NCBI GenBank assembly: GCA_964430885.1
Contig: CAYSHM010000002.1
Coordinates: forward strand, 45,009 to 109,008
Length of the DNA stretch: 64,000 nt
From: an uncultured archaeon
Lineage (GTDB): Archaea; Thermoplasmatota; Penumbrarchaeia; JASLWR01
Direction of reading: 5' to 3'
The first letter of the stretch is position 1. Each line of letters starts with the position of its first letter. Of the stretch, positions 2,991 through 55,151 are shown piece after piece. The position numbers were made by a program, and so were the translations under genes. Below the pieces are notes generated by a model that saw only the letters and a program-made list of their open reading frames with translations, ran no database searches and was not told the origin of the DNA.

Positions 2991-5900
2991 ATGAAATACA
3001 GAATGATTAGCTGTTTACCTTTAGTCATAATGGTCCTTTTGGCCTTGGTCGCTATCCAATCCGTTAATGTCGCAGGTGATACATATCATGATGGTGATAC
3101 TGGAGCAAATGAGGTATGGTCCAGCGGAGTCCATATAGTCGATGATGAATACAATGTAACCAATGGGAACATGTTGACCATCGAACCTGGTGCGAATGTC
3201 AAAATGGACAGCAGTCATGGGGAAGGGAAAATAGTTGTTAAAAACGGCGGAAAACTAGTTATTGCAGGTACATGGGAGAACCCCGTGGTCTTCAGTGAAA
3301 ACGTTTCAGGATCCGGTTATGAGGGTTTAGTTGTGGAGGATGGAGGTATTGCATTCATTAACTATACAAACATAAAAGAAGCAAATATCGGTATTAAATC
3401 CGATGGTCTCAATTTGGCATCCAGCTATGTAGAGGTGAATCACTGTCGAATCAATTCAACAGGCGATTGGGGCTTATATGCCACAGGTGATGAGGAGGTT
3501 ATAGTGAATAACTGCACAATAAACAATACTGGAGATGGGTCTGCTGACAGCGGAGGAGTAAGAATGAGCTCCGGTACCGTATTATCAGACAGCGAAATCT
3601 TCAATTCTTCCAACACAGGAGTCCTTATAGGAGGCGGTTCTCCCGTAATCCACAATACAAAAATCCATAATACAACAGGGAGAGGAATCTCTATAGGTTC
3701 CAGTTATACTCCGAAAATTTCTTCCAGCATAATTGAAAATTCTGGAGAAGTGAATATCTATGCTACCGGATTTGAGAGGAATATTGTTCTATCAAACTGT
3801 ACTCTTTTCAATACAACAGGGGTCAATAGTGCCTATGTAGCACCCAACACGGTAAATGATAATATTAACATTACACTCCTGAATCTAACGGATTTGAGTG
3901 AGGATCTTAATGGCTCTTGGACCGTTATAAAGGGCGGGAATATATCAGTGAACTATTGGGCAAAGGTATATGTTGATGACGTCAACGGTGATCCGATATC
4001 CAACGCCACTGTCGATATGGTTCATAATGGCAGCACACATTTTACAGGCACGACATCCCAAATGGGGTATGCTTGGGTTCAGGCATCTCATTTCATCTAT
4101 AATGATTTGGGTTATTGGTTTAAAGGCAATTATTCTGCAAAGGTGTCCCATACCGATTTTGCACAATCTGAACGAAATGAATATTGGGATATGTTCCATT
4201 CATTGAACTTCACACTTATGGATACAAAAGCTCCTACTCTGGATTCCGATGACTCGCCTAATGCTGGAACGACAGGTGATAACTTCATTTTCAATTTGTC
4301 AGTATCGGACAATATAGGAGTGGATAGTGTAAATGTTACCTGGGCCCACGGTAGTTTGGGCACAAATCAGCCTCTTAATGACGATGGGGATGGAACCTGG
4401 AGTCTCAGCATAACTCTGGATGACAGCCTTAACGACCTCACCTATTCCATTCAGGTCAATGACACTACCGGGAATTATTATAGGCAAGACCTGCAGCTTG
4501 TACCTATTTCAGATAATGATGACCCTGTATTGAATTCGGATAATTCGCCGAATTCAGGAACAACAGGAGATAATTTTGTTTTTGATGTTAGTTTATCTGA
4601 CAACATAGATATTGACATGGTTTATGTGAACTGGACCCATGGCGGTCTTTCCGGCAATGACACCATGAACGATGACGGTGATGGGACCTGGAGTCTTACC
4701 ATAGTGCTGGATGACTCCCTGAGTGACTTGTTTTATTATCTCTGGTTCAATGATACATCTGGTAACATATTTGTTCAATCGCAGCAGCTGATAGGAATAA
4801 ATGACAATGATGCACCAGTATTTGATTCGGATGATTCACCTATTACAGGTACCACAGGCGACGCTTATGTATTTAACATATCTGTATCAGATAATATCGA
4901 TGTGGGTAGTGTAAATGTATCCTGGACCCATGGCGGATTGGGTGGGAATGTTGCCCTTAATGATGATGGTGACGGCACTTGGAGTTTGACTATTGTTCTG
5001 GATCACAGTATTGGAGATCTCATATATTCCATCCAAGTCAATGATACTTCGGGGAATTATTTCAGGCAGCTCCTTCAGACCGTTACAGTTTCTGACAATG
5101 ATAATCCAGTTCTTCTGAATGACAACAGTCCCAACGAGGGTACTACTGGCGATTCATATTTGATATCAATCGAGGCTTCTGACAATGTGGAGGTCGATTC
5201 CGCAAATGTAACCTGGTTCCACGGGACGGATCTATTCAATCAGCCTTTATGGTTCAATGCGACATCAGGCAATTGGGAACTGATGATTAACCTGAACCAT
5301 TTATTAGGAAATCTGGAATATTCAGTTCAGATCAATGATACATCAGGTAATTATCTTCGTCCGGGTAAAAATATAGTGCCAGTAATAGATAACGATAGTC
5401 CGGAATTCGGACAGGTATTTACTGACGCACTTACAACGGGAGACATAGGCGAATTTAGAGCAATCATCAATGATAATATTGATGTTCATGAAGTGTATCT
5501 TGATTTCACGGTAAATGGGGTTTTAGGAGTGAGGAGTTTTAATTGGTCAGTAGTAAATAAAACCAATGATGAATGGTTCATAGGTATTACCTTGCCGAGC
5601 GACACTCAGATTGTAGAGTATTATTTCTGGGCCGCCGATGCTCAAGGTAATTCACAGCTAGCAGGATTGTACCAAAGTTTGGTGACAGATAATGATTCAC
5701 CCAATGGATGGATGAATGAGCTGAATTTCACTACTGGAGATTCGATCATCATCAATATTTCTGCTGAAGACAATATTGATATTACCAATGTAGTGTTCTC
5801 ATATCGATACCAGTATACTGATATGACAATAGATGGAGAATTTTCAGCATTAGGAATGGTGAAAACAGCAGAAGTAGCACCGGTGAACACAGAATATTGG

Positions 5901-8900
5901 CACATTGAGTTAATCATACCTGGTGACGCGATGGTCATATTCTATTTCTTCAATATATCCGATGGACTGAACGCTCCTTATTTCTATCAGCAGGGGACTA
6001 CTCAAAATATACTTCAGGCGCAAGCACAGCCATTTACCGGAAATATTTTAGATAATGATGCACCGATTATTACCAATTATCCAAGCTTCAAGAAGATATA
6101 CAATACGACGGAATCGATCGATATTATTTTTTATGTGTTCGATAACACCTTTTCCATTCAGGAAGTCAGGATAACGTTAAGTGGTATATATGAAGGAACA
6201 TTCTTGTGTCAGGAACTTTACCCGGGGGCATCCTTCCTATACAGCAAGATAGCAGATATAGATCTTATAGGTAGAGTGGATTTCAATGTGACCATCACTG
6301 ATCATGCGGACAATTCGAATCTGTATCCGATATTATATCATTACAATTTCACAGTTGTCGATTCGATAGCCCCAGAATTTGTGGACATAGATGGCAATTT
6401 GACAAATGGGACTGATGATCCATTCGATGTCACATGTTCAGTAAGCGATAACATCGGGCCCCATGAGGCATTCATTCACGTAAAGCATGGCGAGGAAGAC
6501 GATTGGACCGTTTACAGTATGCTTCAATCCATCACAAGCCCGGGCAGTTTCTATATTAGATATCCTGAGGAATTGAAGCACAATTTGGGTTATGATACTT
6601 CATTAGGCATTCCTCTGTATTATTTCATAACAGTTTATGACGAGGCATCAAATTCGAAAAGAATAGGCAACGAAGTCAATCCATTTGTAGTCTCCTTTTA
6701 TGATAATGATGAACCTGAAGTGAGTGATGTTTCAGGAGATATATCTACTTCAGGCGGAGCGGATTTCAATTTAAGTTTGAACGGATCAGACAATTTAGGT
6801 CTGGACAGAGCCCTAATATATCTTAATAACAACCAGGGTAGATCATGGTTGAATGCCGTGGAGATGCATTCAATAATATCCAATAACGGTCAGGTGGGAA
6901 ATTTCTATATAACTTATTATGATCTGTTAACGGAATTGGGTTCCAAGGTCAATACAACTGAACTTACTATTCTATCTTATTATATCAATATCATAGATAT
7001 CAATGGCCAGGTAACTCAAGCAGGTTCTATTGATGAACCATACTCAATCCAAATTGATGACGGGATTGCACCAGTTTTGATCAATTTTAGTTTTACACCT
7101 GATTTGCCCATAACCAATAGTCCCTTTTCTGTTGAAGTAGGAGTTAGGGATAACATAGATAGTCCAATATTGCTCAATACCACTTTGAACTTCTATTACG
7201 ATGAATTTCTAAATTACAGTATTCCAATGGTAAATCTCAATAATAGCCTCTTTCTTGTAATCCTTGACGCAGAAAACATTATTTTGAAGGATAAGAGGAT
7301 TTTAACTCTTTGGGTGGTATTGGAAGACTCCAATGGTAATGAGGTCCGAGTTTTCTTGACCTCTCTGGATATTATTGATACCATTAAACCGAGATTATCA
7401 GATGTTGAGCTTCTGGAGGAGGACGCGGAACGTCCAATAGATAGGGTCAGACCCGGAAAACCAGAGGATGTTTCAGCTGGCCAGGAGATCCTTGTAACAG
7501 TTGAGCCTATTGATAATTTTGGCATCAAGGATATGGAAATAATCATGGAATATTCCAATGTTGATTATGAAACCAATATCGAGAACAATGTTACTTACAA
7601 CAATACAATGCCCCTCGTTTCATGGGAAGGTTTGATCATTATACCAGATCTTCAGAGAGGATATCTTTATTATCGCTTCATATTGACAGATGCTTCAGGT
7701 AATGTTTACATTACAGATGATTATTTGCTAAATGTATCGTCCAATGATGCAGATGATGATGGAATTCCAGATTATTTGGAGCCTTCACATAACAGCCTGA
7801 ATCCTGATGGAAGTTCCAAGGGATTCAACGGCAGTTCACTACCTTTCAAGGATGATCCAGAGGAATGGGCTGATTATGATAATGATTCAGTAGGGGATAA
7901 TTCCGACGATCTCCCATTTGATCCCATAGCTGCTATTGACAGTGATGGTGACGGTTATCCGGATCTACTGTTGCCAAATGCGAAGTTTGATCAATCGACC
8001 ACTGGAATTGACCATATTGATCAGTTCCCCAATGATCCTTCCTGCAGTTTAGATAATGATGGTGACGGTTATCCCGATGAATGGAATTCCGGGATGTCAG
8101 GGGTGGATTCCCCTAGATGGCCAAATATTTGGTTGGATGATTATCCTTTTGATAAGGATGAGAACAAGGTAATTATTGAGTTCAAGGATCCGGAAAAGGA
8201 AGAATTCAATTGGGTCCTGTTCATTATCCTCATAATTGTGATACTTTTGATACTTTTCTTGGTTGGTTTCATTATTTTCAAGAAAGCGGGACCTTGGTTG
8301 GAGGAAAGAAATAAACGAAAGGAGGAGGAAAAGGAGGAGGAGGAGGAAAAACAAAAGAAGGACGAGGAACGTAAGAAAAGACTCCTGGCAGCGAAGAAGA
8401 AAGATGAATATGCTGCTAAAAAGAAGAAGGCAAAAAGAAAGGCCAAGACCAGTGAGGAAGCGGATAAAGAATCCATGGACAAGAAGAGAAGAATGTTCCT
8501 GGATGACGAAGATGATGAGTTGTTGGACATTGATGAAATGCTTCCTGAAGAAATGCTGTGGGAGGGTGGCGTTCTAGATACCAGAAGACTGTTATTGGAA
8601 GCAGAGGATGACGGATTCTTGGATGAAGAAATGCCCGATGAAGACGATTATTTGGATGAATCCGCTTATACCCCTGAAGTAACGGAAGTCGAATCTGAAA
8701 TAGATGAGGGGTCGACGGAAGATGAAGATACGGATGATATGGATCTAGTAGGAGATGAATTGGATGATGATCTGTTGGCGATGTACTTCGCAGGTGACTC
8801 TGATTCTGGTGATTTGGCTGCTGAAGAAGATGAACCATTTGAGGAATTGGATGATGAGGATGACGAATTGGATCCCGAAATAATGGATCAATTGAACAAA

Positions 8901-9011
8901 TTGGGAGATTTTGAAGATGATTCTGAAGACGATTCTGATGATAAGGAAGAAGATCTGGATGATATTGAAAAGAGTTTCAAGAATGCGCTGGCTGAATTGG
9001 ACGAACTATAG
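2991..9011 (+). CDS. Giant membrane-anchored surface protein (2006 aa): signal peptide, right-handed beta-helix, many Ig-like repeats, TSP3-like Ca-binding motifs, TM helix, Lys/Glu-rich then Asp/Glu-rich cytoplasmic tail
   Basis: GGTGGTGA RBS; hydrophobic N-terminus; LTIEPGANV beta-helix start; repeated DNxxP..DN.GV units; DxDGDGxPD motifs; TM segment FNWVLFIILIIVILLILFLVGFIIF; acidic tail of about 200 aa. Confidence 0.9.
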   Translation: MKYRMISCLPLVIMVLLALVAIQSVNVAGDTYHDGDTGANEVWSSGVHIVDDEYNVTNGNMLTIEPGANVKMDSSHGEGKIVVKNGGKLVIAGTWENPVVFSENVSGSGYEGLVVEDGGIAFINYTNIKEANIGIKSDGLNLASSYVEVNHCRINSTGDWGLYATGDEEVIVNNCTINNTGDGSADSGGVRMSSGTVLSDSEIFNSSNTGVLIGGGSPVIHNTKIHNTTGRGISIGSSYTPKISSSIIENSGEVNIYATGFERNIVLSNCTLFNTTGVNSAYVAPNTVNDNINITLLNLTDLSEDLNGSWTVIKGGNISVNYWAKVYVDDVNGDPISNATVDMVHNGSTHFTGTTSQMGYAWVQASHFIYNDLGYWFKGNYSAKVSHTDFAQSERNEYWDMFHSLNFTLMDTKAPTLDSDDSPNAGTTGDNFIFNLSVSDNIGVDSVNVTWAHGSLGTNQPLNDDGDGTWSLSITLDDSLNDLTYSIQVNDTTGNYYRQDLQLVPISDNDDPVLNSDNSPNSGTTGDNFVFDVSLSDNIDIDMVYVNWTHGGLSGNDTMNDDGDGTWSLTIVLDDSLSDLFYYLWFNDTSGNIFVQSQQLIGINDNDAPVFDSDDSPITGTTGDAYVFNISVSDNIDVGSVNVSWTHGGLGGNVALNDDGDGTWSLTIVLDHSIGDLIYSIQVNDTSGNYFRQLLQTVTVSDNDNPVLLNDNSPNEGTTGDSYLISIEASDNVEVDSANVTWFHGTDLFNQPLWFNATSGNWELMINLNHLLGNLEYSVQINDTSGNYLRPGKNIVPVIDNDSPEFGQVFTDALTTGDIGEFRAIINDNIDVHEVYLDFTVNGVLGVRSFNWSVVNKTNDEWFIGITLPSDTQIVEYYFWAADAQGNSQLAGLYQSLVTDNDSPNGWMNELNFTTGDSIIINISAEDNIDITNVVFSYRYQYTDMTIDGEFSALGMVKTAEVAPVNTEYWHIELIIPGDAMVIFYFFNISDGLNAPYFYQQGTTQNILQAQAQPFTGNILDNDAPIITNYPSFKKIYNTTESIDIIFYVFDNTFSIQEVRITLSGIYEGTFLCQELYPGASFLYSKIADIDLIGRVDFNVTITDHADNSNLYPILYHYNFTVVDSIAPEFVDIDGNLTNGTDDPFDVTCSVSDNIGPHEAFIHVKHGEEDDWTVYSMLQSITSPGSFYIRYPEELKHNLGYDTSLGIPLYYFITVYDEASNSKRIGNEVNPFVVSFYDNDEPEVSDVSGDISTSGGADFNLSLNGSDNLGLDRALIYLNNNQGRSWLNAVEMHSIISNNGQVGNFYITYYDLLTELGSKVNTTELTILSYYINIIDINGQVTQAGSIDEPYSIQIDDGIAPVLINFSFTPDLPITNSPFSVEVGVRDNIDSPILLNTTLNFYYDEFLNYSIPMVNLNNSLFLVILDAENIILKDKRILTLWVVLEDSNGNEVRVFLTSLDIIDTIKPRLSDVELLEEDAERPIDRVRPGKPEDVSAGQEILVTVEPIDNFGIKDMEIIMEYSNVDYETNIENNVTYNNTMPLVSWEGLIIIPDLQRGYLYYRFILTDASGNVYITDDYLLNVSSNDADDDGIPDYLEPSHNSLNPDGSSKGFNGSSLPFKDDPEEWADYDNDSVGDNSDDLPFDPIAAIDSDGDGYPDLLLPNAKFDQSTTGIDHIDQFPNDPSCSLDNDGDGYPDEWNSGMSGVDSPRWPNIWLDDYPFDKDENKVIIEFKDPEKEEFNWVLFIILIIVILLILFLVGFIIFKKAGPWLEERNKRKEEEKEEEEEKQKKDEERKKRLLAAKKKDEYAAKKKKAKRKAKTSEEADKESMDKKRRMFLDDEDDELLDIDEMLPEEMLWEGGVLDTRRLLLEAEDDGFLDEEMPDEDDYLDESAYTPEVTEVESEIDEGSTEDEDTDDMDLVGDELDDDLLAMYFAGDSDSGDLAAEEDEPFEELDDEDDELDPEIMDQLNKLGDFEDDSEDDSDDKEEDLDDIEKSFKNALAELDEL
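4221..5387 (+). repeat. Four intragenic tandem units of about 291 nt (97-aa Ig-like domains)
   Basis: Units start at 4221, 4512, 4803 and 5094 and share SPxxGTTGD, SDN.xVD, NVxWxHG and NDTxGN; the first three also share NDDGDGTWSL. Confidence 0.9.
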
Positions 9012-9440: not shown

Positions 9441-10460
9441 TCAAATGAATGCTTCTGCAAATAATATTATTTGAAATAACAGAACACCCATTCGAGTTCC
9501 GGTTCTAATATTCAATTCGAAGGCATTCCAAATTATCTCGTCATCCTCTTTTTTGATAGTAATCCATACTTTTATCCAAGTAAGGTAAAGAATCAATAGA
9601 AAAACTGTTGCCCCTGCGAGATATAATTTTCCGTATATTTCCGGGAATCCAAATAATCCATAATATGAAATCGGATACAATGGAATGAAAAATGAATAGA
9701 AAAGGATGACCAGGTACATCGACGGCATTCTGCCCTGTCTAACTGGCGTAGTCTTGAAACCAGCGGCTATGTCTCCTTTCAAATCCCCTATGCAAACCAT
9801 TATTTCTCTACCGATTTCCATCAAGAATATCGCAGACGCAAGAGGGAGTAAGATTTTAAGGTCGTTCCAAGAGTAGGGTCTCATGGCCCATGCACCCCAA
9901 AGAGGTATCGCACCCACACCGAAAGCTACTATCAAATGGCCGATTATACCGCGGTATTTACCTTTGGAGTTATAATAAATTCCAGATATTGCAATGACTG
10001 ATGTTAGCAGACCGCAGGGTAAATTGATTCCGTATGGGGTCAGTGATCCTTCATAGCTGTTGTTGGCAAAGAGGGTTGTGGAAAACGAGATCAGGACTGA
10101 TATGACCATCATGATAATGCCTGTTATTGCAGCGGTTTTTGGTTTAATCAATCCTGAGGGAATAGGTTTTTGAGGTCTGTTAACCCTGTCGGATTCAAGA
10201 TCGGTGAAATCATTATGTACCATCAATCCTCCAGCCAAAAAGGCTGCAGCTAACATTGTCAATAGGAACATATCCCATTCCAGATGAAACCCCGCATTGA
10301 TGGTAATATCTGCAATTGTTACATTCAGGGCACCAACGCTGGATCCGAATACTGAAATAATAATTATCAGAGGACGGCATATTCTAACCCATGCCAATAC
10401 CCTATTCGTCATATATACGCTGGAGGAATCAATGGAAAAACCACCCACAGACCGGCTCAT
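9441..10460 (-). CDS. UbiA-family prenyltransferase, probable digeranylgeranylglyceryl phosphate (DGGGP) synthase
   Basis: NDFTDLESDRVNRPQKPIPSG and REIMVCIGDLKGD..G.KTTP motifs; multiple TM helices. Confidence 0.85.
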   Translation of the reverse strand: MSRSVGGFSIDSSSVYMTNRVLAWVRICRPLIIIISVFGSSVGALNVTIADITINAGFHLEWDMFLLTMLAAAFLAGGLMVHNDFTDLESDRVNRPQKPIPSGLIKPKTAAITGIIMMVISVLISFSTTLFANNSYEGSLTPYGINLPCGLLTSVIAISGIYYNSKGKYRGIIGHLIVAFGVGAIPLWGAWAMRPYSWNDLKILLPLASAIFLMEIGREIMVCIGDLKGDIAAGFKTTPVRQGRMPSMYLVILFYSFFIPLYPISYYGLFGFPEIYGKLYLAGATVFLLILYLTWIKVWITIKKEDDEIIWNAFELNIRTGTRMGVLLFQIILFAEAFI

Positions 10461-10556: not shown

Positions 10557-11264
10557 TCAGAATGAATCTACAATCTCATTGACCCCGATAATTTCCTTTT
10601 TCCTGTCTTTGGCCAAATTGTCGGCCTTCAATAATATATTCTTGATCCTTACCTGGTCTATTGTATCCTGTAATTTGAGCATAATTTCCTTTAATTCCTG
10701 AAATTTCATATTGCTCCTTATTCCGTTCTCCAATCCTAGAATTAACTCCTCCATTTCATTTTCCAGATACAATCTCAATTCAGTAATACCTTCGGACCTG
10801 ATCTCACGTTTTGTGTAGCATTTGGCAATTCTAATTAAGGCGATATCATCAACATATTTGTCCGCTATTACCGCTTCATCCTCAATCTCCTCCAAATGCC
10901 GTCTCATGAGTGTTTTGTTGTTGTTCTGAAGAGCGTGTTTCTCTCCGATTTTAACTATCTTCCGAATTACTTTCTCCGCTTCTACCCTAGCCCGGTTCAC
11001 AGCTGAGGATCCGATCCGCATATTTTTTTCATATTTCATCATCACTTCCTTAACTCTATTGTTGGAAAGATGGGGGTTAATATCTGCAAGGGTCTTTGCT
11101 TCGGGAGAATCATTTAGAGTTTGGGATTTCATAACAAGTGTTGATTCCCTGATATGCTCCTCTGCCTTTTCCTTCAGGAATCCTTTAAAATCCTTTGATA
11201 TATTTAGAGTTGTGATGGTTTTTGCTATGTTGGTTATTCTGCCTACAGAGAGTTCATCTGCCAT
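10557..11264 (-). CDS. Multi-histone-fold protein (probable histone triplet)
   Basis: Three segments follow the archaeal histone pattern: ELSVGRITNIAK..NISKDF..KTL; LSNNRVKEVM..RIGSSA..HALQNNNKTLMRRHL; IALIRIAK..EIRSEG..ADNLAKDRKKEIIGVNEI. Confidence 0.7.
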   Translation of the reverse strand: MADELSVGRITNIAKTITTLNISKDFKGFLKEKAEEHIRESTLVMKSQTLNDSPEAKTLADINPHLSNNRVKEVMMKYEKNMRIGSSAVNRARVEAEKVIRKIVKIGEKHALQNNNKTLMRRHLEEIEDEAVIADKYVDDIALIRIAKCYTKREIRSEGITELRLYLENEMEELILGLENGIRSNMKFQELKEIMLKLQDTIDQVRIKNILLKADNLAKDRKKEIIGVNEIVDSF

Positions 11265-11325
11265 TTTTCCCCTCGAGTGATAGTTTATTCAAAGTGGTAG
11301 TTTTATTAAGAAGTTTTAGTGGAAA

Positions 11326-12432
11326 TCAAATTCCAATAGCTGACAGGCTTATATGCCAACCCATGAACATTCCAACAACTGCTATTAGATACAACAATAT
11401 TAGAACACTTCCTTCCCACCTAACTAACTTCAGATCAGTTATCATGAACAATATTGCAACTGTGCATGCTACAAGGGTAATAGGGGCCAGGAAATAGAAA
11501 ACAGTGACGCTTTCCAATACCACAATAGGATTGAAAATGCTTGCAATTCCAATAGAAAATAGAGGATCGGTGATATTGGAGCCTATAAGGGTGCCGAGTG
11601 CCAGGGACTTTGCTTTCTTGATAGCTACACCTGCGACGATAAGTTCTGGAACAGATGTCCCGAAAGCGGTGATGGAGGTGCCGATTATACTTTCCTCCAT
11701 ATTGAACTTCTCTGATATAGTACTGGCCGAATCCACCATTTTATTGGCACTGAATATTACAAACCCCAATCCCAGAGCCAGGAACAGGATTGCAATACCC
11801 AGACCCATACCCATCTCGTCCTTTTCATTATCCAAGTCGTCATTGGGTTTATCATCATCCATCCCTTTTTTCCTGAAATATATCAGAAGGTATGCCAGAT
11901 AAGCTAGATAGATCAAAATAAGTATGATCCCCTGCCATGTTTGAAGTGTTTTATCCCAGGCAGTAAAGAGTGTGAGAAGGAATACGGCCCCCAGCATGCA
12001 CAACCCATCCCTTTTGATGACTGTTGCATCGGTTTTAATGGGACAGAAAAGCACCACTATTCCCAGTATGAAGGTGATCTGAACCAGAACACTGCCGTAT
12101 ATATTTCCTATTGCCAGGTCTGCGTGTCCATGGTATGACGCAGTAGCAGTAGAAGCGATCTCCGGAACAGAGGTTCCAATTGAAACGATCGTTAGACCAA
12201 CAATGAACTCGGAAAGACCCAGCCGTTTAGCAACCGCTTTAGCGCCTTCAAGAAACAAATCGGCTGAGGTTATGATCAATAAAAGGGAGAACAGAAGTAT
12301 CATACAGTAAATAATGACATTTCTGAATTTTGCAGCCAGAATTACCATGACAAGTAGGATCAGGAAGGATAGTATGGATAGGACCATATCCCGGTATTCC
12401 CAATTGGTGAATTTCTTAAAAACAGAGGTCAT
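11326..12432 (-). CDS. Ca2+/Na+ antiporter (CaCA, YrbG-like)
   Basis: Two alpha repeats, GTSVPE..GNIYGS and GTSVPE..GTLIGSN; about 11 TM helices. Confidence 0.93.
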   Translation of the reverse strand: MTSVFKKFTNWEYRDMVLSILSFLILLVMVILAAKFRNVIIYCMILLFSLLLIITSADLFLEGAKAVAKRLGLSEFIVGLTIVSIGTSVPEIASTATASYHGHADLAIGNIYGSVLVQITFILGIVVLFCPIKTDATVIKRDGLCMLGAVFLLTLFTAWDKTLQTWQGIILILIYLAYLAYLLIYFRKKGMDDDKPNDDLDNEKDEMGMGLGIAILFLALGLGFVIFSANKMVDSASTISEKFNMEESIIGTSITAFGTSVPELIVAGVAIKKAKSLALGTLIGSNITDPLFSIGIASIFNPIVVLESVTVFYFLAPITLVACTVAILFMITDLKLVRWEGSVLILLYLIAVVGMFMGWHISLSAIGI

Positions 12433-21607: not shown

Positions 21608-21631
21608 GTTATCAAAAGGGAAATATTTAAG

Positions 21632-21718
21632 CGCCGAGGAAGGGATTTGAACCCTTGAGGTACAGGGTACCAACGGGTTTCGAGCCCGTCGCCGTTGGCC
21701 TGGCTTAGCTACCTCGGC
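21632..21718 (-). tRNA. tRNA-Ser (anticodon CGA), long variable arm, no intron, CCA not encoded
   Basis: Acceptor GCCGAGG/CCTCGGC plus G discriminator; anticodon arm ACGGG-CTCGAAA-CCCGT; variable arm GGTAC..GTACC; T arm AAGGG-TTCAAAT-CCCTT. Confidence 0.96.
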
Positions 21719-54791: not shown

Positions 54792-55151
54792 AGGTGGTTC
54801 TGTCCGGTTTATAAGCCTCCTTCTGTTTCAGATAAATCGTCGCCGATATACCCTAGATGACATTCAACTAAGCGTCCTACCTTTTGGTCAACGGGAGGTT
54901 CATACCAATACGTTTGGACTTGCTCCAGGGAGGATTGGCCGTTTCATCAAATCCTGTTTCGTAGTCAGAGCCTAACTCATCATTCCATTACGGTCGAACC
55001 GCGTGAAACAGGCTGTGTCGTTTCTGATCCATTGCCTGCCTTCTCAGACATCCGGATTGCCCCGGATCCCTTTACCCGTAGGAGGGAGGACTTTCCTCAG
55101 CAAACCCTAAAAAGGGAGCACCGTCGGTCATCCATCCGCTCAGAACCACCT
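54792..55151 (-). ncRNA. rnpB: Archaeal RNase P RNA
   Basis: Terminal helix GGTGGTTCTG/CAGAACCACC; conserved GAGGAAAGTCC, AGAAACG, TGAAACGGCC, GGAGCAAG, CGCTTAG and AACAGAAGGAGGCTTAT in the expected order. Confidence 0.96.

What the first reader, a model, noticed from the sequence alone, without database searches (positions are those of the whole stretch)
10557..11264. Single-chain protein with three tandem histone folds, the third carrying a long helical insertion
Seen: three repeats of the alpha1-L1-alpha2-L2-alpha3 pattern. The L1 loops are NIS, RIG and EIR; the L2 loops are KTL, KTL and EII in place of the canonical RKT. Fold 1 seems to lack alpha3 and fold 3 has about 35 extra residues inside alpha2. 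Established: archaeal histones are usually singlets, with doublets known in Methanopyrus and Halobacteria, and histone folds pair as dimers. Inference: an odd number of folds leaves one free for intermolecular pairing (a six-fold dimer or polymer), implying non-standard chromatin architecture. I cannot tell whether this family is already catalogued.
Basis: partly seen in the sequence, partly recalled or inferred. Interest (0 to 1): 0.75.

Follow-up and report, generated by a model that had tools for sequence, protein, structure and literature searches.

The report
Three-fold archaeal histone, third fold closed
This archaeal gene really does encode three histone folds in one chain, but the models pair the first two with each other and fold the third back on itself, which would make it a natural single-chain histone fold in a group of archaea thought to have lost histones.

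Summary
The ORF at 10557..11264 (-) is real: 235 aa, single copy and conserved. Profile comparison confirms three homologous histone-fold repeats (P 1e-5 to 3e-7; reversed controls 0.02-0.24). Fold 2 matches solved histones at E 9e-10.

Two AlphaFold2 runs (pLDDT 78 and 83) show residues 1-135 as a handshake pseudo-dimer like the Methanopyrus HMk doublet and single-chain H2A-H2B (Z 12-14). Fold 1 has no alpha3 helix. Fold 3 (136-235) has an insertion of about 36 residues in alpha2. It is predicted to close on itself into an AAA+-lid-like four-helix bundle (Z 8, rmsd 1.8 A), with its own L1 and L2 paired. The "odd fold left free for pairing" idea is therefore not supported, and a dimer model kept fold 3 out of the interface.

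The family occurs in 68 of 401 genomes sampled from the phylum, mostly Poseidoniales (Marine Group II). It is the only histone-fold gene found in this genome and in five Poseidoniales genomes checked. It is probably the "Poseidoniia double" category of Schwab et al. 2024, whose description I could not read.

DNA binding is inferred from conserved contact residues only, and most members are acidic. I rate it a new variant of a known kind.

The parts
10557..11264 (-). Whole gene: 235-aa protein (P0001) plus TGA stop at 10557-10559
   Evidence: ORF list and translation. Full-length orthologues without internal stops in 68 of 401 genomes of the phylum. One copy in the window's own genome.
11064..11264 (-). 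Histone fold 1 (residues 1-67): alpha1 7-15, L1 with beta-bridge 21-22, alpha2 24-52, conserved L2 (P54, K57, T58), no alpha3 helix
   Evidence: AF2 secondary structure. A fold-1 profile has the histone HmvA as best PDB hit at E 0.0044, and NF-YB at 0.021. hhalign against fold 2 gives P 7.4e-7. Invariant K27, P54, K57, L66.
10860..11063 (-). Histone fold 2 (residues 68-135): alpha1 68-78, L1 79-85, alpha2 86-113, L2 with beta-bridge 118-119, alpha3 122-134
   Evidence: Pfam Histone match at residues 69-125, E 0.0036. The family profile hits HmvA 8bdk at E 8.9e-10, NC2-alpha at 7.3e-8, and also NF-YC, H2A and H3. Invariant R70, E97, T118.
10848..10889 (-). Acidic inter-domain linker (residues about 126-139; 14 aa here, 8-46 aa in the family, median 35, net charge 0 to -10)
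   Evidence: pLDDT below 50 at 128-135 and 129-134. Length and charge across 29 sequences.
10560..10859 (-). Histone fold 3 / closed C-domain (residues 136-235): alpha1 140-150, L1 bridge 154-155, alpha2 N-half 157-183, inserted helix 188-201, alpha2 C-half 204-220, L2 bridge 225-226, alpha3 228-234
   Evidence: hhalign against fold 1 gives P 2.8e-7; fold 2 against its C-half gives P 2.6e-6. AF2 pLDDT 88-97. Structural matches to AAA+ lids: RuvBL 2xsz_A Z 8.1, rmsd 1.8, 67 aligned, plus MCM, FtsH, clamp-loader delta, Cdc6/ORC.
10653..10715 (-). Hinge insertion inside alpha2 of fold 3 (about residues 184-204; up to 172-207 by the HPhA mapping)
   Evidence: Two-stretch match of the fold-3 profile to HPhA with a 36-position gap. 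Extra helix 188-201 in both models. C-domain length is 100-106 aa in 19 of 19 sequences.
11265..11325 (-). 61-nt upstream intergenic region with an A/T-rich TATA-like box about 39-47 nt before the ATG and a GAGGGG purine run 6-11 nt before it
   Evidence: Read by eye from the sequence. This is an inference, not a tested signal.

Best explanation
This is a real, single-copy, conserved Thermoplasmatota gene for a protein built from three tandem, homologous histone folds.

Shown by computation:
- Folds 1 and 2 (residues 1-135) form a histone 'handshake' pseudo-dimer of the doublet type. Fold 1 has no alpha3 helix.
- Fold 3 (136-235) carries a conserved insertion of about 20-36 residues in the middle of alpha2. 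This lets its two helix-strand-helix halves pack on each other.
- The result is a closed four-helix bundle like an AAA+ lid (C-domain), with its own L1-L2 beta-bridge. The odd fold is therefore satisfied within the chain.

Inferred:
- The protein is a DNA-binding architectural or regulatory histone variant.
- The doublet would contact DNA through the conserved L2 and alpha1 residues K57/T58, R70, K/R72 and T118.
- The closed C-domain is tethered by a variable acidic linker. It could offer a third beta-bridge site (family consensus R-G-K/Y-K) for a second DNA segment or a partner, or limit oligomerisation.
- With one alpha3 missing, it should not build hypernucleosome-type polymers.
For: Repeat homology with reversed-sequence controls.

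Histone identity of fold 2: HmvA E 8.9e-10, NC2-alpha 7.3e-8. Ten of 14 family members hit CBFD_NFYB_HMF, best E 5e-7.

Structure. Two AF2 runs agree, at pLDDT 78.3 and 82.9.
- Residues 1-135 align to single-chain H2A-H2B (7vcl_A Z 14.2, rmsd 2.8, 128 aligned), a Melbournevirus doublet (Z 12.4-13.0), HMk 1f1e (Z 11.5-12.3) and the SOS histone domain (Z 11.4).
- Residues 136-235 align to AAA+ lids: RuvBL Z 8.1-8.5, rmsd 1.8-1.9, 67 aligned, plus MCM, FtsH, MuB, clamp-loader delta, Cdc6/ORC and Rpt.

Conservation over 29 sequences: K27, P54, K57, L66, R70, E97, T118 and A214 are invariant; T58, D61, A111, E162 and D233 are at least 90% conserved.

Distribution:
- Found in 68 of 401 genomes of the phylum, in full length, with no internal stops.
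- In the window's own genome (91.6% complete) it is the only place hit by PF00125. PF00808 and NF043032 found nothing above threshold. HU and MC1 were not found and Alba was.
- Among the six family-bearing genomes of the 61 relatives, the only PF00808 hits lie inside this gene. The same pattern holds in five Poseidoniales genomes.

Precedent: a three-residue insertion in the alpha2 hinge of HMfB gave a stable monomer with four-helix-bundle properties. This is Hadjithomas and Moudrianakis 2011 as described in PMC8508939 (passage seen). Alva et al. 2007 derive the histone fold from the AAA+ C-domain by hinge shortening (Discussion read).
Against: - No experiment and no expression data exist for this family.
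- Most members are acidic: pI 4.9-8.5, median 5.3. The doublet core has net charge -5 to +1 in 14 of 14 Poseidoniales sequences. The window's protein is the exception, with core +8 and pI 8.5.
- Two of the positions I recall as DNA contacts in HMfB are not conserved. Residue 9 is H in 16 and R in 11 of 29. Residue 117 is variable.
- P0001 is below both Pfam cut-offs.
- A monomer prediction is biased towards closed forms, and I could not inspect coordinates or the predicted error maps. pTM is only 0.48-0.51.
- Z about 8 is in the range that helical bundles can reach by chance (tool note).
- The two-copy ESMFold2 model pairs fold 2 of one chain with fold 1 of the other, not within a chain. Score 0.64, best of 3 controls 0.00. 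The mark was reached by 20 of 30 proteins solved as pairs and 1 of 23 solved as single chains. Runs agree in at least 89% of contacts and the partner's pLDDT is at least 73. This pass may come from the model's memory of solved histone pairs.
Confidence: 0.55

Rival explanations
1. First reader's model. Fold 3 is an open histone fold that pairs with fold 3 of another chain (or with another fold), giving six-fold dimers or polymers and a non-standard chromatin fibre.
For: By sequence, fold 3 is a genuine histone-fold repeat. Histone folds normally exist only as pairs. Monomer predictions cannot show swapped states. Closed and swapped forms of one domain can coexist (general point in Alva 2007).
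Against: Both AF2 runs close fold 3 on itself with pLDDT 88-97. The hinge insertion is conserved in length, with the C-domain 100-106 aa in 19 of 19 sequences. A hinge insertion of only three residues was enough to make HMfB monomeric. The confident interface of the two-copy model lies wholly in residues 1-125.
Confidence: 0.12
2. Reciprocal dimer. Fold 1 of chain A pairs with fold 2 of chain B and the reverse. The unit is then a dimer holding two handshake pairs joined by two linkers, with two closed C-domains hanging off it.
For: complex prediction with two copies gave score 0.64 against a best of 3 controls of 0.00. The mark was reached by 20 of 30 proteins solved as pairs and 1 of 23 solved as single chains. 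Runs agree in at least 89% of contacts and partner pLDDT is at least 73. The best pairs are 96-34, 92-38 and 100-30 across chains. The fold 1 to fold 2 connection (residues 53-67) has low confidence in the monomer models.
Against: The same contacts can form within one chain, as in the AF2 monomers and in the solved doublet HMk. Histone handshake pairs are abundant among solved structures, so the pass may be from memory. The calibration holds only roughly with my own alignment.
Confidence: 0.25
3. Not a chromatin protein. It would be a histone-fold scaffold for protein-protein or transcription-factor contacts (like NC2, NF-Y, TAF/SAGA Spt3, the SOS histone domain or DUF1931), with the lid-like domain as an interaction module.
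For: Acidic pI in most members and acidic linkers. The best sequence hits after HmvA are NC2-alpha and NF-YC for fold 2 and NF-YB for fold 1. Structural hits include SAGA Spt3 (Z 10.0), SOS (11.4) and DUF1931 1wwi (9.9). Schwab et al. note that DUF1931 histones lack DNA-binding residues (passage). Marine Group II already has MC1 as a nucleoid protein (Hocher 2022, passage).
Against: L2 K57/T58 and T118 and alpha1 R70 and K/R72 are invariant or nearly so. No operon partner is conserved across families. MC1 was not found in the window's own genome, which leaves this protein and Alba as the candidates there.
Confidence: 0.25
4. The C-terminal domain is a captured AAA+ lid (a remnant of an ATPase gene) and not a third histone-fold repeat.
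For: All of its good structural matches are AAA+ lids. Weak Pfam lid hits appear among the 14 members of A1: LonB_AAA-LID in 2 (best E 3.9e-4), Cdc6_lid in 2, AAA_lid_14 in 1.
Against: Its N-half is most similar to fold 1 of the same protein (P 1.7e-7) and its C-half to fold 2 (P 2.6e-6). None of 19 isolated C-domains hit a Pfam lid family at E<=0.1, while 3 of 19 hit CBFD at profile positions 37-61. Histones and lids are themselves related (Alva 2007), so the two readings are hard to separate.
Confidence: 0.12

Closest known systems
'Poseidoniia double' histone category of Schwab et al. 2024 (Nat Commun 15:7950, PMC11390915)
   Same: It covers the same taxon. Orthologues of the window's protein come from Candidatus Poseidoniaceae and Thalassarchaeaceae by the sources' own names, and JGI/IMG calls them 'histone H3/H4'. 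It is a two-fold histone label with small alignment depths of 222-280. No other histone-fold gene was found in five Poseidoniales genomes.
   Different: It is catalogued as a double, not a triple. The main text does not discuss it. Supplementary Table 2, which describes it, could not be read. Identity with this family is inferred, because the source data hold accessions without sequences. The window's genome belongs to a different class of the phylum from Poseidoniia.
HMk, the Methanopyrus kandleri histone doublet (PDB 1f1e), and haloarchaeal doublets ('Halo double')
   Same: Two histone folds in one chain pair with each other. Residues 4-135 align to 1f1e at Z 11.5-12.3, rmsd 3.0-3.4, 126 aligned.
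   Different: Sequence identity is only 14%. Fold 1 here has no alpha3 helix. There is an extra 100-residue third unit behind an acidic linker.
AAA+ lid (C-domain), e.g. RuvBL1/2 domain III, Lon, FtsH, Cdc6/ORC; and the engineered monomeric HMfB
   Same: A closed four-helix bundle made of two helix-strand-helix motifs with one beta-bridge. RuvBL matches at Z 8.1-8.5, rmsd 1.8-1.9, 67 aligned. The principle matches the hinge-insertion HMfB monomer.
   Different: There is no ATPase core. By sequence it is a repeat of the protein's own histone folds. It carries an extra helix (188-201) in the hinge.
Viral histone triplets and quadruplets of giant viruses (Talbert et al. 2022, PMC9145170)
   Same: More than two histone folds are fused in one chain. 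The best BFVD structure hits are Marseillevirus and Melbournevirus histone doublets.
   Different: The viral triplets are H2B-H2A-H3-like, with an H4 singlet as partner for the odd fold (passage). Here the odd fold is predicted to pair with itself, and the host is an archaeon.
DUF1931 pseudo-dimeric histone-fold proteins (PDB 1wwi, 1r4v)
   Same: Single-chain pseudo-dimers. 1wwi matches at Z 9.2-9.9 over residues 3-135. Two of 14 family members hit PF09123 weakly, best E 8.1e-4.
   Different: P0001 itself does not hit PF09123. DUF1931 has no third unit. 1r4v reaches only Z 5.9.

Membership tests
Histone fold (Pfam PF00808 CBFD_NFYB_HMF / PF00125 Histone) | Score above the curated Pfam threshold | tested here: not met
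   P0001 scores PF00125 18 bits against 26.4 and PF00808 10.9 against 21.4. Orthologues do pass: 22.6 and 22.7 bits in G001 and G003, and 25.1 bits in G380, against 21.4. Ten of 14 members hit at E<=1, best 5e-7.
Histone fold (Pfam PF00808 CBFD_NFYB_HMF / PF00125 Histone) | alpha1-L1-alpha2-L2-alpha3 with a long central helix, paired head to tail with a second fold | tested here: met
   Met for folds 1 and 2 in the predicted models and in their alignment to solved doublets at Z 12-14. Profile hit to HmvA at E 8.9e-10. This rests on predicted structure only.
Histone fold (Pfam PF00808 CBFD_NFYB_HMF / PF00125 Histone) | Continuous alpha2 (open, partner-dependent fold) in every repeat | tested here: not met
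   Fold 3 has alpha2 split into 157-183 and 204-220 by an inserted helix, and it closes on itself.
Nucleosomal (hypernucleosome-forming) archaeal histones | Full alpha3 on both folds of the dimer, giving two four-helix-bundle contacts | tested here: not met
   No helix between residues 53 and 67 of fold 1 in either model. The requirement itself is taken from Schwab et al., section 6.
Nucleosomal (hypernucleosome-forming) archaeal histones | Conserved DNA-contact residues (alpha1 Arg, L1 Arg, L2 Lys-Thr; positions recalled from HMfB) | tested here: inconclusive
   K57, R70 and T118 are invariant, T58 is present in 28 of 29, and K/R72 is conserved. Position 9 is H in 16 and R in 11, position 21 is R in 17 and N in 12, and position 117 is variable. 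The mapping to HMfB is from memory.
Archaeal single-chain histone doublets ('Poseidoniia double', HMk, 'Halo double') | Two histone folds in one chain | tested here: met
Archaeal single-chain histone doublets ('Poseidoniia double', HMk, 'Halo double') | Sequence membership in the published 'Poseidoniia double' set | not testable with these tools
   The source data give UniProt accessions and category labels only, with no sequences. The look-up returned no UniProt accessions to cross-check.
AAA+ lid / C-domain | Four-helix bundle of two helix-strand-helix motifs with one beta-bridge | tested here: met
   2xsz_A at Z 8.1, rmsd 1.8, 67 aligned over residues 136-235. More than ten other AAA+ lids appear in the top 50. 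Bridges at 154-155 and 225-226. This rests on predicted structure only.
AAA+ lid / C-domain | Follows a P-loop AAA+ ATPase core in the same chain | tested here: not met
   The 235-aa protein has no ATPase family hit. Residues 1-135 are the histone doublet.
AAA+ lid / C-domain | Match to a Pfam AAA-lid model | tested here: inconclusive
   None of 19 isolated C-domains matched at E<=0.1. Weak hits occur in a few of the 14 full-length members.
DUF1931 (PF09123) | Match to the Pfam model | tested here: inconclusive
   Two of 14 members hit, best E 8.1e-4. P0001 has no hit. The structure match to 1wwi is Z 9.9.

The most novel reading that the evidence does not exclude
Fold 3 would be a natural 'un-swapped' histone fold. 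It would have arisen by internal duplication of a true histone fold and then closed into a monomeric four-helix bundle through a hinge insertion. That is the reverse of the domain swap proposed to have created histones from the AAA+ C-domain. [quoted passage not shown]

In addition, this three-fold protein would be the working histone-derived chromatin protein of Marine Group II and a few other Thermoplasmatota. These lineages are reported to have lost histones (Hocher 2022).
Probability: 0.3. Interest if true: 0.75.

Novelty: new variant of a known kind. Interest (0 to 1): 0.55.

Why it matters
If the models hold, this family gives a natural test of the domain-swap theory of histone-fold origin. 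One chain would carry both the open (paired) and the closed (lid-like) state of the same repeat.

It also bears on whether Thermoplasmatota really lost histones (Hocher 2022). The globally abundant Marine Group II archaea and some sediment or deep-water relatives would keep one divergent histone-fold gene that falls below the Pfam thresholds.

Finally, it suggests a chromatin protein that cannot polymerise like HMf-type histones but carries three potential beta-bridge binding sites.

All functional statements are inferences. The existence of the family is probably already recorded.

Tried and rejected
- phmmer of P0001 against PDB sequences found 0 hits at E<=10.
- The word-indexed search of 5.8 billion proteins found only its own cluster and one 57% relative.
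- The search for related loci in genome contigs first failed on the alignment, which had no conserved stretch. It then found no relative with the single protein. The genome search was used instead.
- Foldseek against the PDB had no hit at E<=1e-3, although the top rows were histone doublets.
- In one search the three comparisons against a 'canonical histone' alignment are void. My script produced an empty file and printed a stale result. I replaced them with profile searches against PDB sequences. One search recovered only one canonical histone ORF and was dropped.
- Sequencing runs: no RNA holder listed.
- Earlier findings of this scan: none near the gene or like its sequence.
- NCBIfam: nothing for P0001. 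archaea_histone is below its cut-off in two orthologues.
- No gene neighbour is conserved across families.
- The small Cys/His protein next to the gene in Poseidoniaceae was not found in this genome with that query.
- Supplementary Table 2 of Schwab et al. is in a file too large to read. The peer-review file does not mention Poseidoniia.
- Literature searches for 'histone triplet', 'triple histone', 'three histone folds' and 'three histone-fold' and for 'Poseidoniia' with 'histone' listed no paper on an archaeal triple histone. These searches cover only the held library.
- I rejected the idea that fold 3 is a chance helical region. Reversed-sequence controls scored P 0.02-0.24 against 1e-5 to 3e-7 for the real repeats.
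Full report
**The gene.** The ORF at 10557..11264 on the minus strand starts with ATG and encodes 235 residues. It sits between a UbiA-like membrane protein gene (9441..10460) and a cation-antiporter-like gene (11326..12432), all on the minus strand. A 61-nt upstream spacer holds an A/T-rich box and a GAGGGG run before the ATG (read by eye). The window is archaeal, since it contains an archaeal RNase P RNA at 184.6 bits.

**Is it a family?**
- A full HMMER scan of 1.84 billion cluster representatives found 14 relatives at E<=1e-3.
- A profile search of 401 genomes sampled from the phylum found full-length, stop-free orthologues in 68. These were 57 in family f31, 6 of 36 in f14, 3 of 3 in the window's own family f1, 1 of 1 in f5, and the window's genome itself.
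- By the sources' own names, f31 is Candidatus Poseidoniaceae and f14 is Thalassarchaeaceae. The bulk of the family is therefore Marine Group II.
- NCBI calls these proteins 'hypothetical protein' and JGI/IMG calls them 'histone H3/H4'.
- The ESM Atlas places the query next to 261-262-aa Thermoplasmatota clusters. In one of them 86% of 57 members carry PF00808.
- The window's genome belongs to the same phylum but a different class. Earlier unchecked notes of this scan also call it a marine Thermoplasmatota.

**Checking the observation.**
- P0001 alone is only weakly histone-like: PF00125 E 0.0036 at residues 69-125, below the cut-off.
- The family profile hits solved histones clearly: HmvA 8bdk E 8.9e-10, NC2-alpha 7.3e-8, and also NF-YC, H2A and H3. 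All of these hits fall on fold 2.
- A fold-1 profile has HmvA (0.0044) and NF-YB (0.021) on top.
- A fold-3 profile gives only weak histone hits, 6 of 20 rows. HPhA matches in two stretches, profile positions 10-36 and 73-95, which leaves 36 inserted positions.
- The decisive test was profile against profile within the protein, on a 29-sequence alignment. Fold 1 vs fold 2 gave P 7.4e-7. Fold 1 vs fold 3 gave 2.8e-7, covering the N-half of fold 3. Fold 2 vs the C-half of fold 3 gave 2.6e-6. Seven reversed-sequence controls gave 0.022-0.24.
- An earlier run on 15 sequences gave the same picture for folds 1-2 and 1-3. Its 'canonical histone' rows are void because the file was empty.
- The three-repeat observation stands, including the missing alpha3 helix of fold 1 and the insertion in alpha2 of fold 3.

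**Predicted structure.** Two AlphaFold2 runs gave the same secondary structure. The first used 14 sequences (pLDDT 78.3), the second 29 (pLDDT 82.9; all five models at 78 or more).
- Helices are at 7-15, 24-52, 68-78, 86-113, 122-134, 140-150, 157-183, 188-201, 204-220 and 228-234.
- Beta-bridges are at 21-22, 118-119, 154-155 and 225-226.
- Low confidence is confined to residues 56-63 and 129-134.
- Structure comparison splits the model into two parts (and independently of Foldseek).
- Residues 1-135 align to single-chain histone pairs: 7vcl_A Z 14.2, rmsd 2.8, 128 aligned; Melbournevirus doublets Z 12.4-13.0; HMk 1f1e Z 11.5-12.3; SOS Z 11.4; SAGA Spt3 Z 10.0; DUF1931 1wwi Z 9.2-9.9.
- Residues 136-235 align to AAA+ lid domains: RuvBL Z 8.1-8.5, rmsd 1.8-1.9, 67 aligned. 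Other matches are MCM, MuB, FtsH, clamp-loader delta, Cdc6/ORC, proteasome Rpt, and the Pol-epsilon B N-domain, which is itself described as lid-like.
- Z of 8 is middling for helical bundles by the tool's own note. The support comes from the run of low-rmsd lid matches that span the whole domain.
- I could not see coordinates or error maps.

**Reading of the structure.** Folds 1 and 2 pair with each other as a doublet. The hinge insertion lets the two helix-strand-helix halves of fold 3 pack on each other, with its own L1 bridged to its own L2. Alva et al. 2007 propose exactly this relation between AAA+ C-domains and histones, namely that hinge shortening caused a fixed domain swap (abstract and Discussion read). 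A review reports that a three-residue hinge insertion turned HMfB into a stable monomer with four-helix-bundle properties. [quoted passage not shown] Fold 3 would be a natural case of this, made from a repeat of a true histone fold.

**Quaternary state.**
- A two-copy ESMFold2 job on the full length scored 0.64 against a best of 3 controls of 0.00. The mark was reached by 20 of 30 proteins solved as pairs and 1 of 23 solved as single chains. The runs agree in at least 89% of contacts and the partner's pLDDT is at least 73.
- The confident interface is residues 1-125 of both copies. Fold 2 of one chain crosses fold 1 of the other, for example 96 with 34 and 92 with 38.
- This is the same handshake made between chains instead of within one. 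It may reflect the model's memory of solved histone pairs.
- No residue of 136-235 was named in the interface. By the tool's note this is uncertain and is not proof of absence.
A reciprocal dimer of folds 1 and 2 remains open.

**Function (inferred).**
- Conserved over 29 sequences are K27, P54, K57, T58 (28 of 29), D61, L66, N69, R70, K/R72, E97, A111, T118, R122, H123, E162, A214 and D233.
- K57/T58 and T118 sit in the two L2 loops. R70 and K/R72 sit in alpha1 of fold 2. From memory of HMfB, these are the positions that contact DNA.
- The L2 of fold 3 has the consensus R-G-K/Y-K.
- Against a plain DNA binder, family pI is 4.9-8.5 with median 5.3. The doublet core has net charge -5 to +1 in all 14 Poseidoniales sequences. 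The linker (8-46 aa, median 35) carries a net charge of 0 to -10.
- The window's protein and its three closest relatives differ: doublet core +5 to +8 and linker 8-14 aa.
- No gene neighbour is conserved across families, and no RNA data were available.

**Genomic setting.**
- In the window's genome (91.6% complete), PF00808 and NF043032 find nothing above threshold. The only PF00125 hit is fold 2 of this gene.
- HU and MC1 were not found and Alba was.
- Among 61 relatives, 17 have PF00808 hits. In the six genomes carrying this family, the only hits lie inside the gene itself.
- Four Poseidoniaceae genomes (92-97% complete) have no PF00808 hit, and one Thalassarchaeaceae genome has a hit only inside the gene.
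- Hocher et al. 2022 state that histones and Alba were lost at the root of the Diaforarchaea and that most Marine Group II archaea encode MC1 (passages). This divergent gene is an exception that Pfam thresholds miss.

**What is already known.**
- The source-data archive of Schwab et al. 2024 labels many UniProt entries 'Poseidoniia double' (882 occurrences of the label; alignment depths 222-280). It also has a separate 'Thermoplasmatota' category.
- The main text does not discuss either category. The descriptive Supplementary Table 2 could not be read.
- I judge it very likely, but have not shown, that 'Poseidoniia double' is this family. If so, its existence as a histone doublet is in print. 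The third, closed repeat and its presence outside Poseidiniia may not be.
- Histone triplets are described for giant viruses (Talbert 2022, passages; the search listing of a 2024 preprint). My searches listed no paper on an archaeal triple histone.

**Verdict.** I rate it a new variant of a known kind, of moderate to good interest for protein evolution and archaeal chromatin. All functional claims still need experiments.

Noticed in passing
L011:1492-2457 (+) (genome G050); similar frames in G039 and G060: A different multi-fold histone protein occurs in other Thermoplasmatota. It is 321-328 aa, with two canonical PF00808 folds (E 7.5e-22) followed by about 190 residues with no Pfam family. 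It might be the 'Thermoplasmatota' category of Schwab et al.
   Followed up: partly
L023, L025, L027, L028, L030, L032, L033 (next to the family gene): A small 88-110-aa Cys/His-rich protein with no Pfam family lies directly beside the gene in 7 of 14 Poseidoniales loci. In 6 it is immediately upstream and in 1 it is convergent. Some public gene calls fuse it in frame to the histone protein (355 aa). It was not found in the window's genome with this query.
   Followed up: partly
window 10557-11264 compared with its relatives: The window's protein and its three closest relatives (P0003-P0005) form a subgroup with a short linker (8-14 aa) and a basic doublet core (+5 to +8). The other 25 sequences have linkers of 17-46 aa and cores of -5 to +5.
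   Followed up: partly
window 2991-9011 (+): A 2006-aa secreted or membrane-anchored protein with many ~90-aa repeats of the 'DSPNxGTTGD' type and a very acidic, Lys/Glu-rich cytoplasmic tail.
   Followed up: no
fold 1 profile (window 11064-11264) against PDB: The alpha1-L1-alpha2 start of fold 1 matches a 31-residue stretch of the reverse gyrase helicase domain (4ddt, residues 276-306, E 0.016). This could be chance or a shared helix-strand-helix motif.
   Followed up: no
window 54800-55143 (-) and 21631-21718 (-): Archaeal RNase P RNA (184.6 bits) and a tRNA-Ser (CGA).
   Followed up: no
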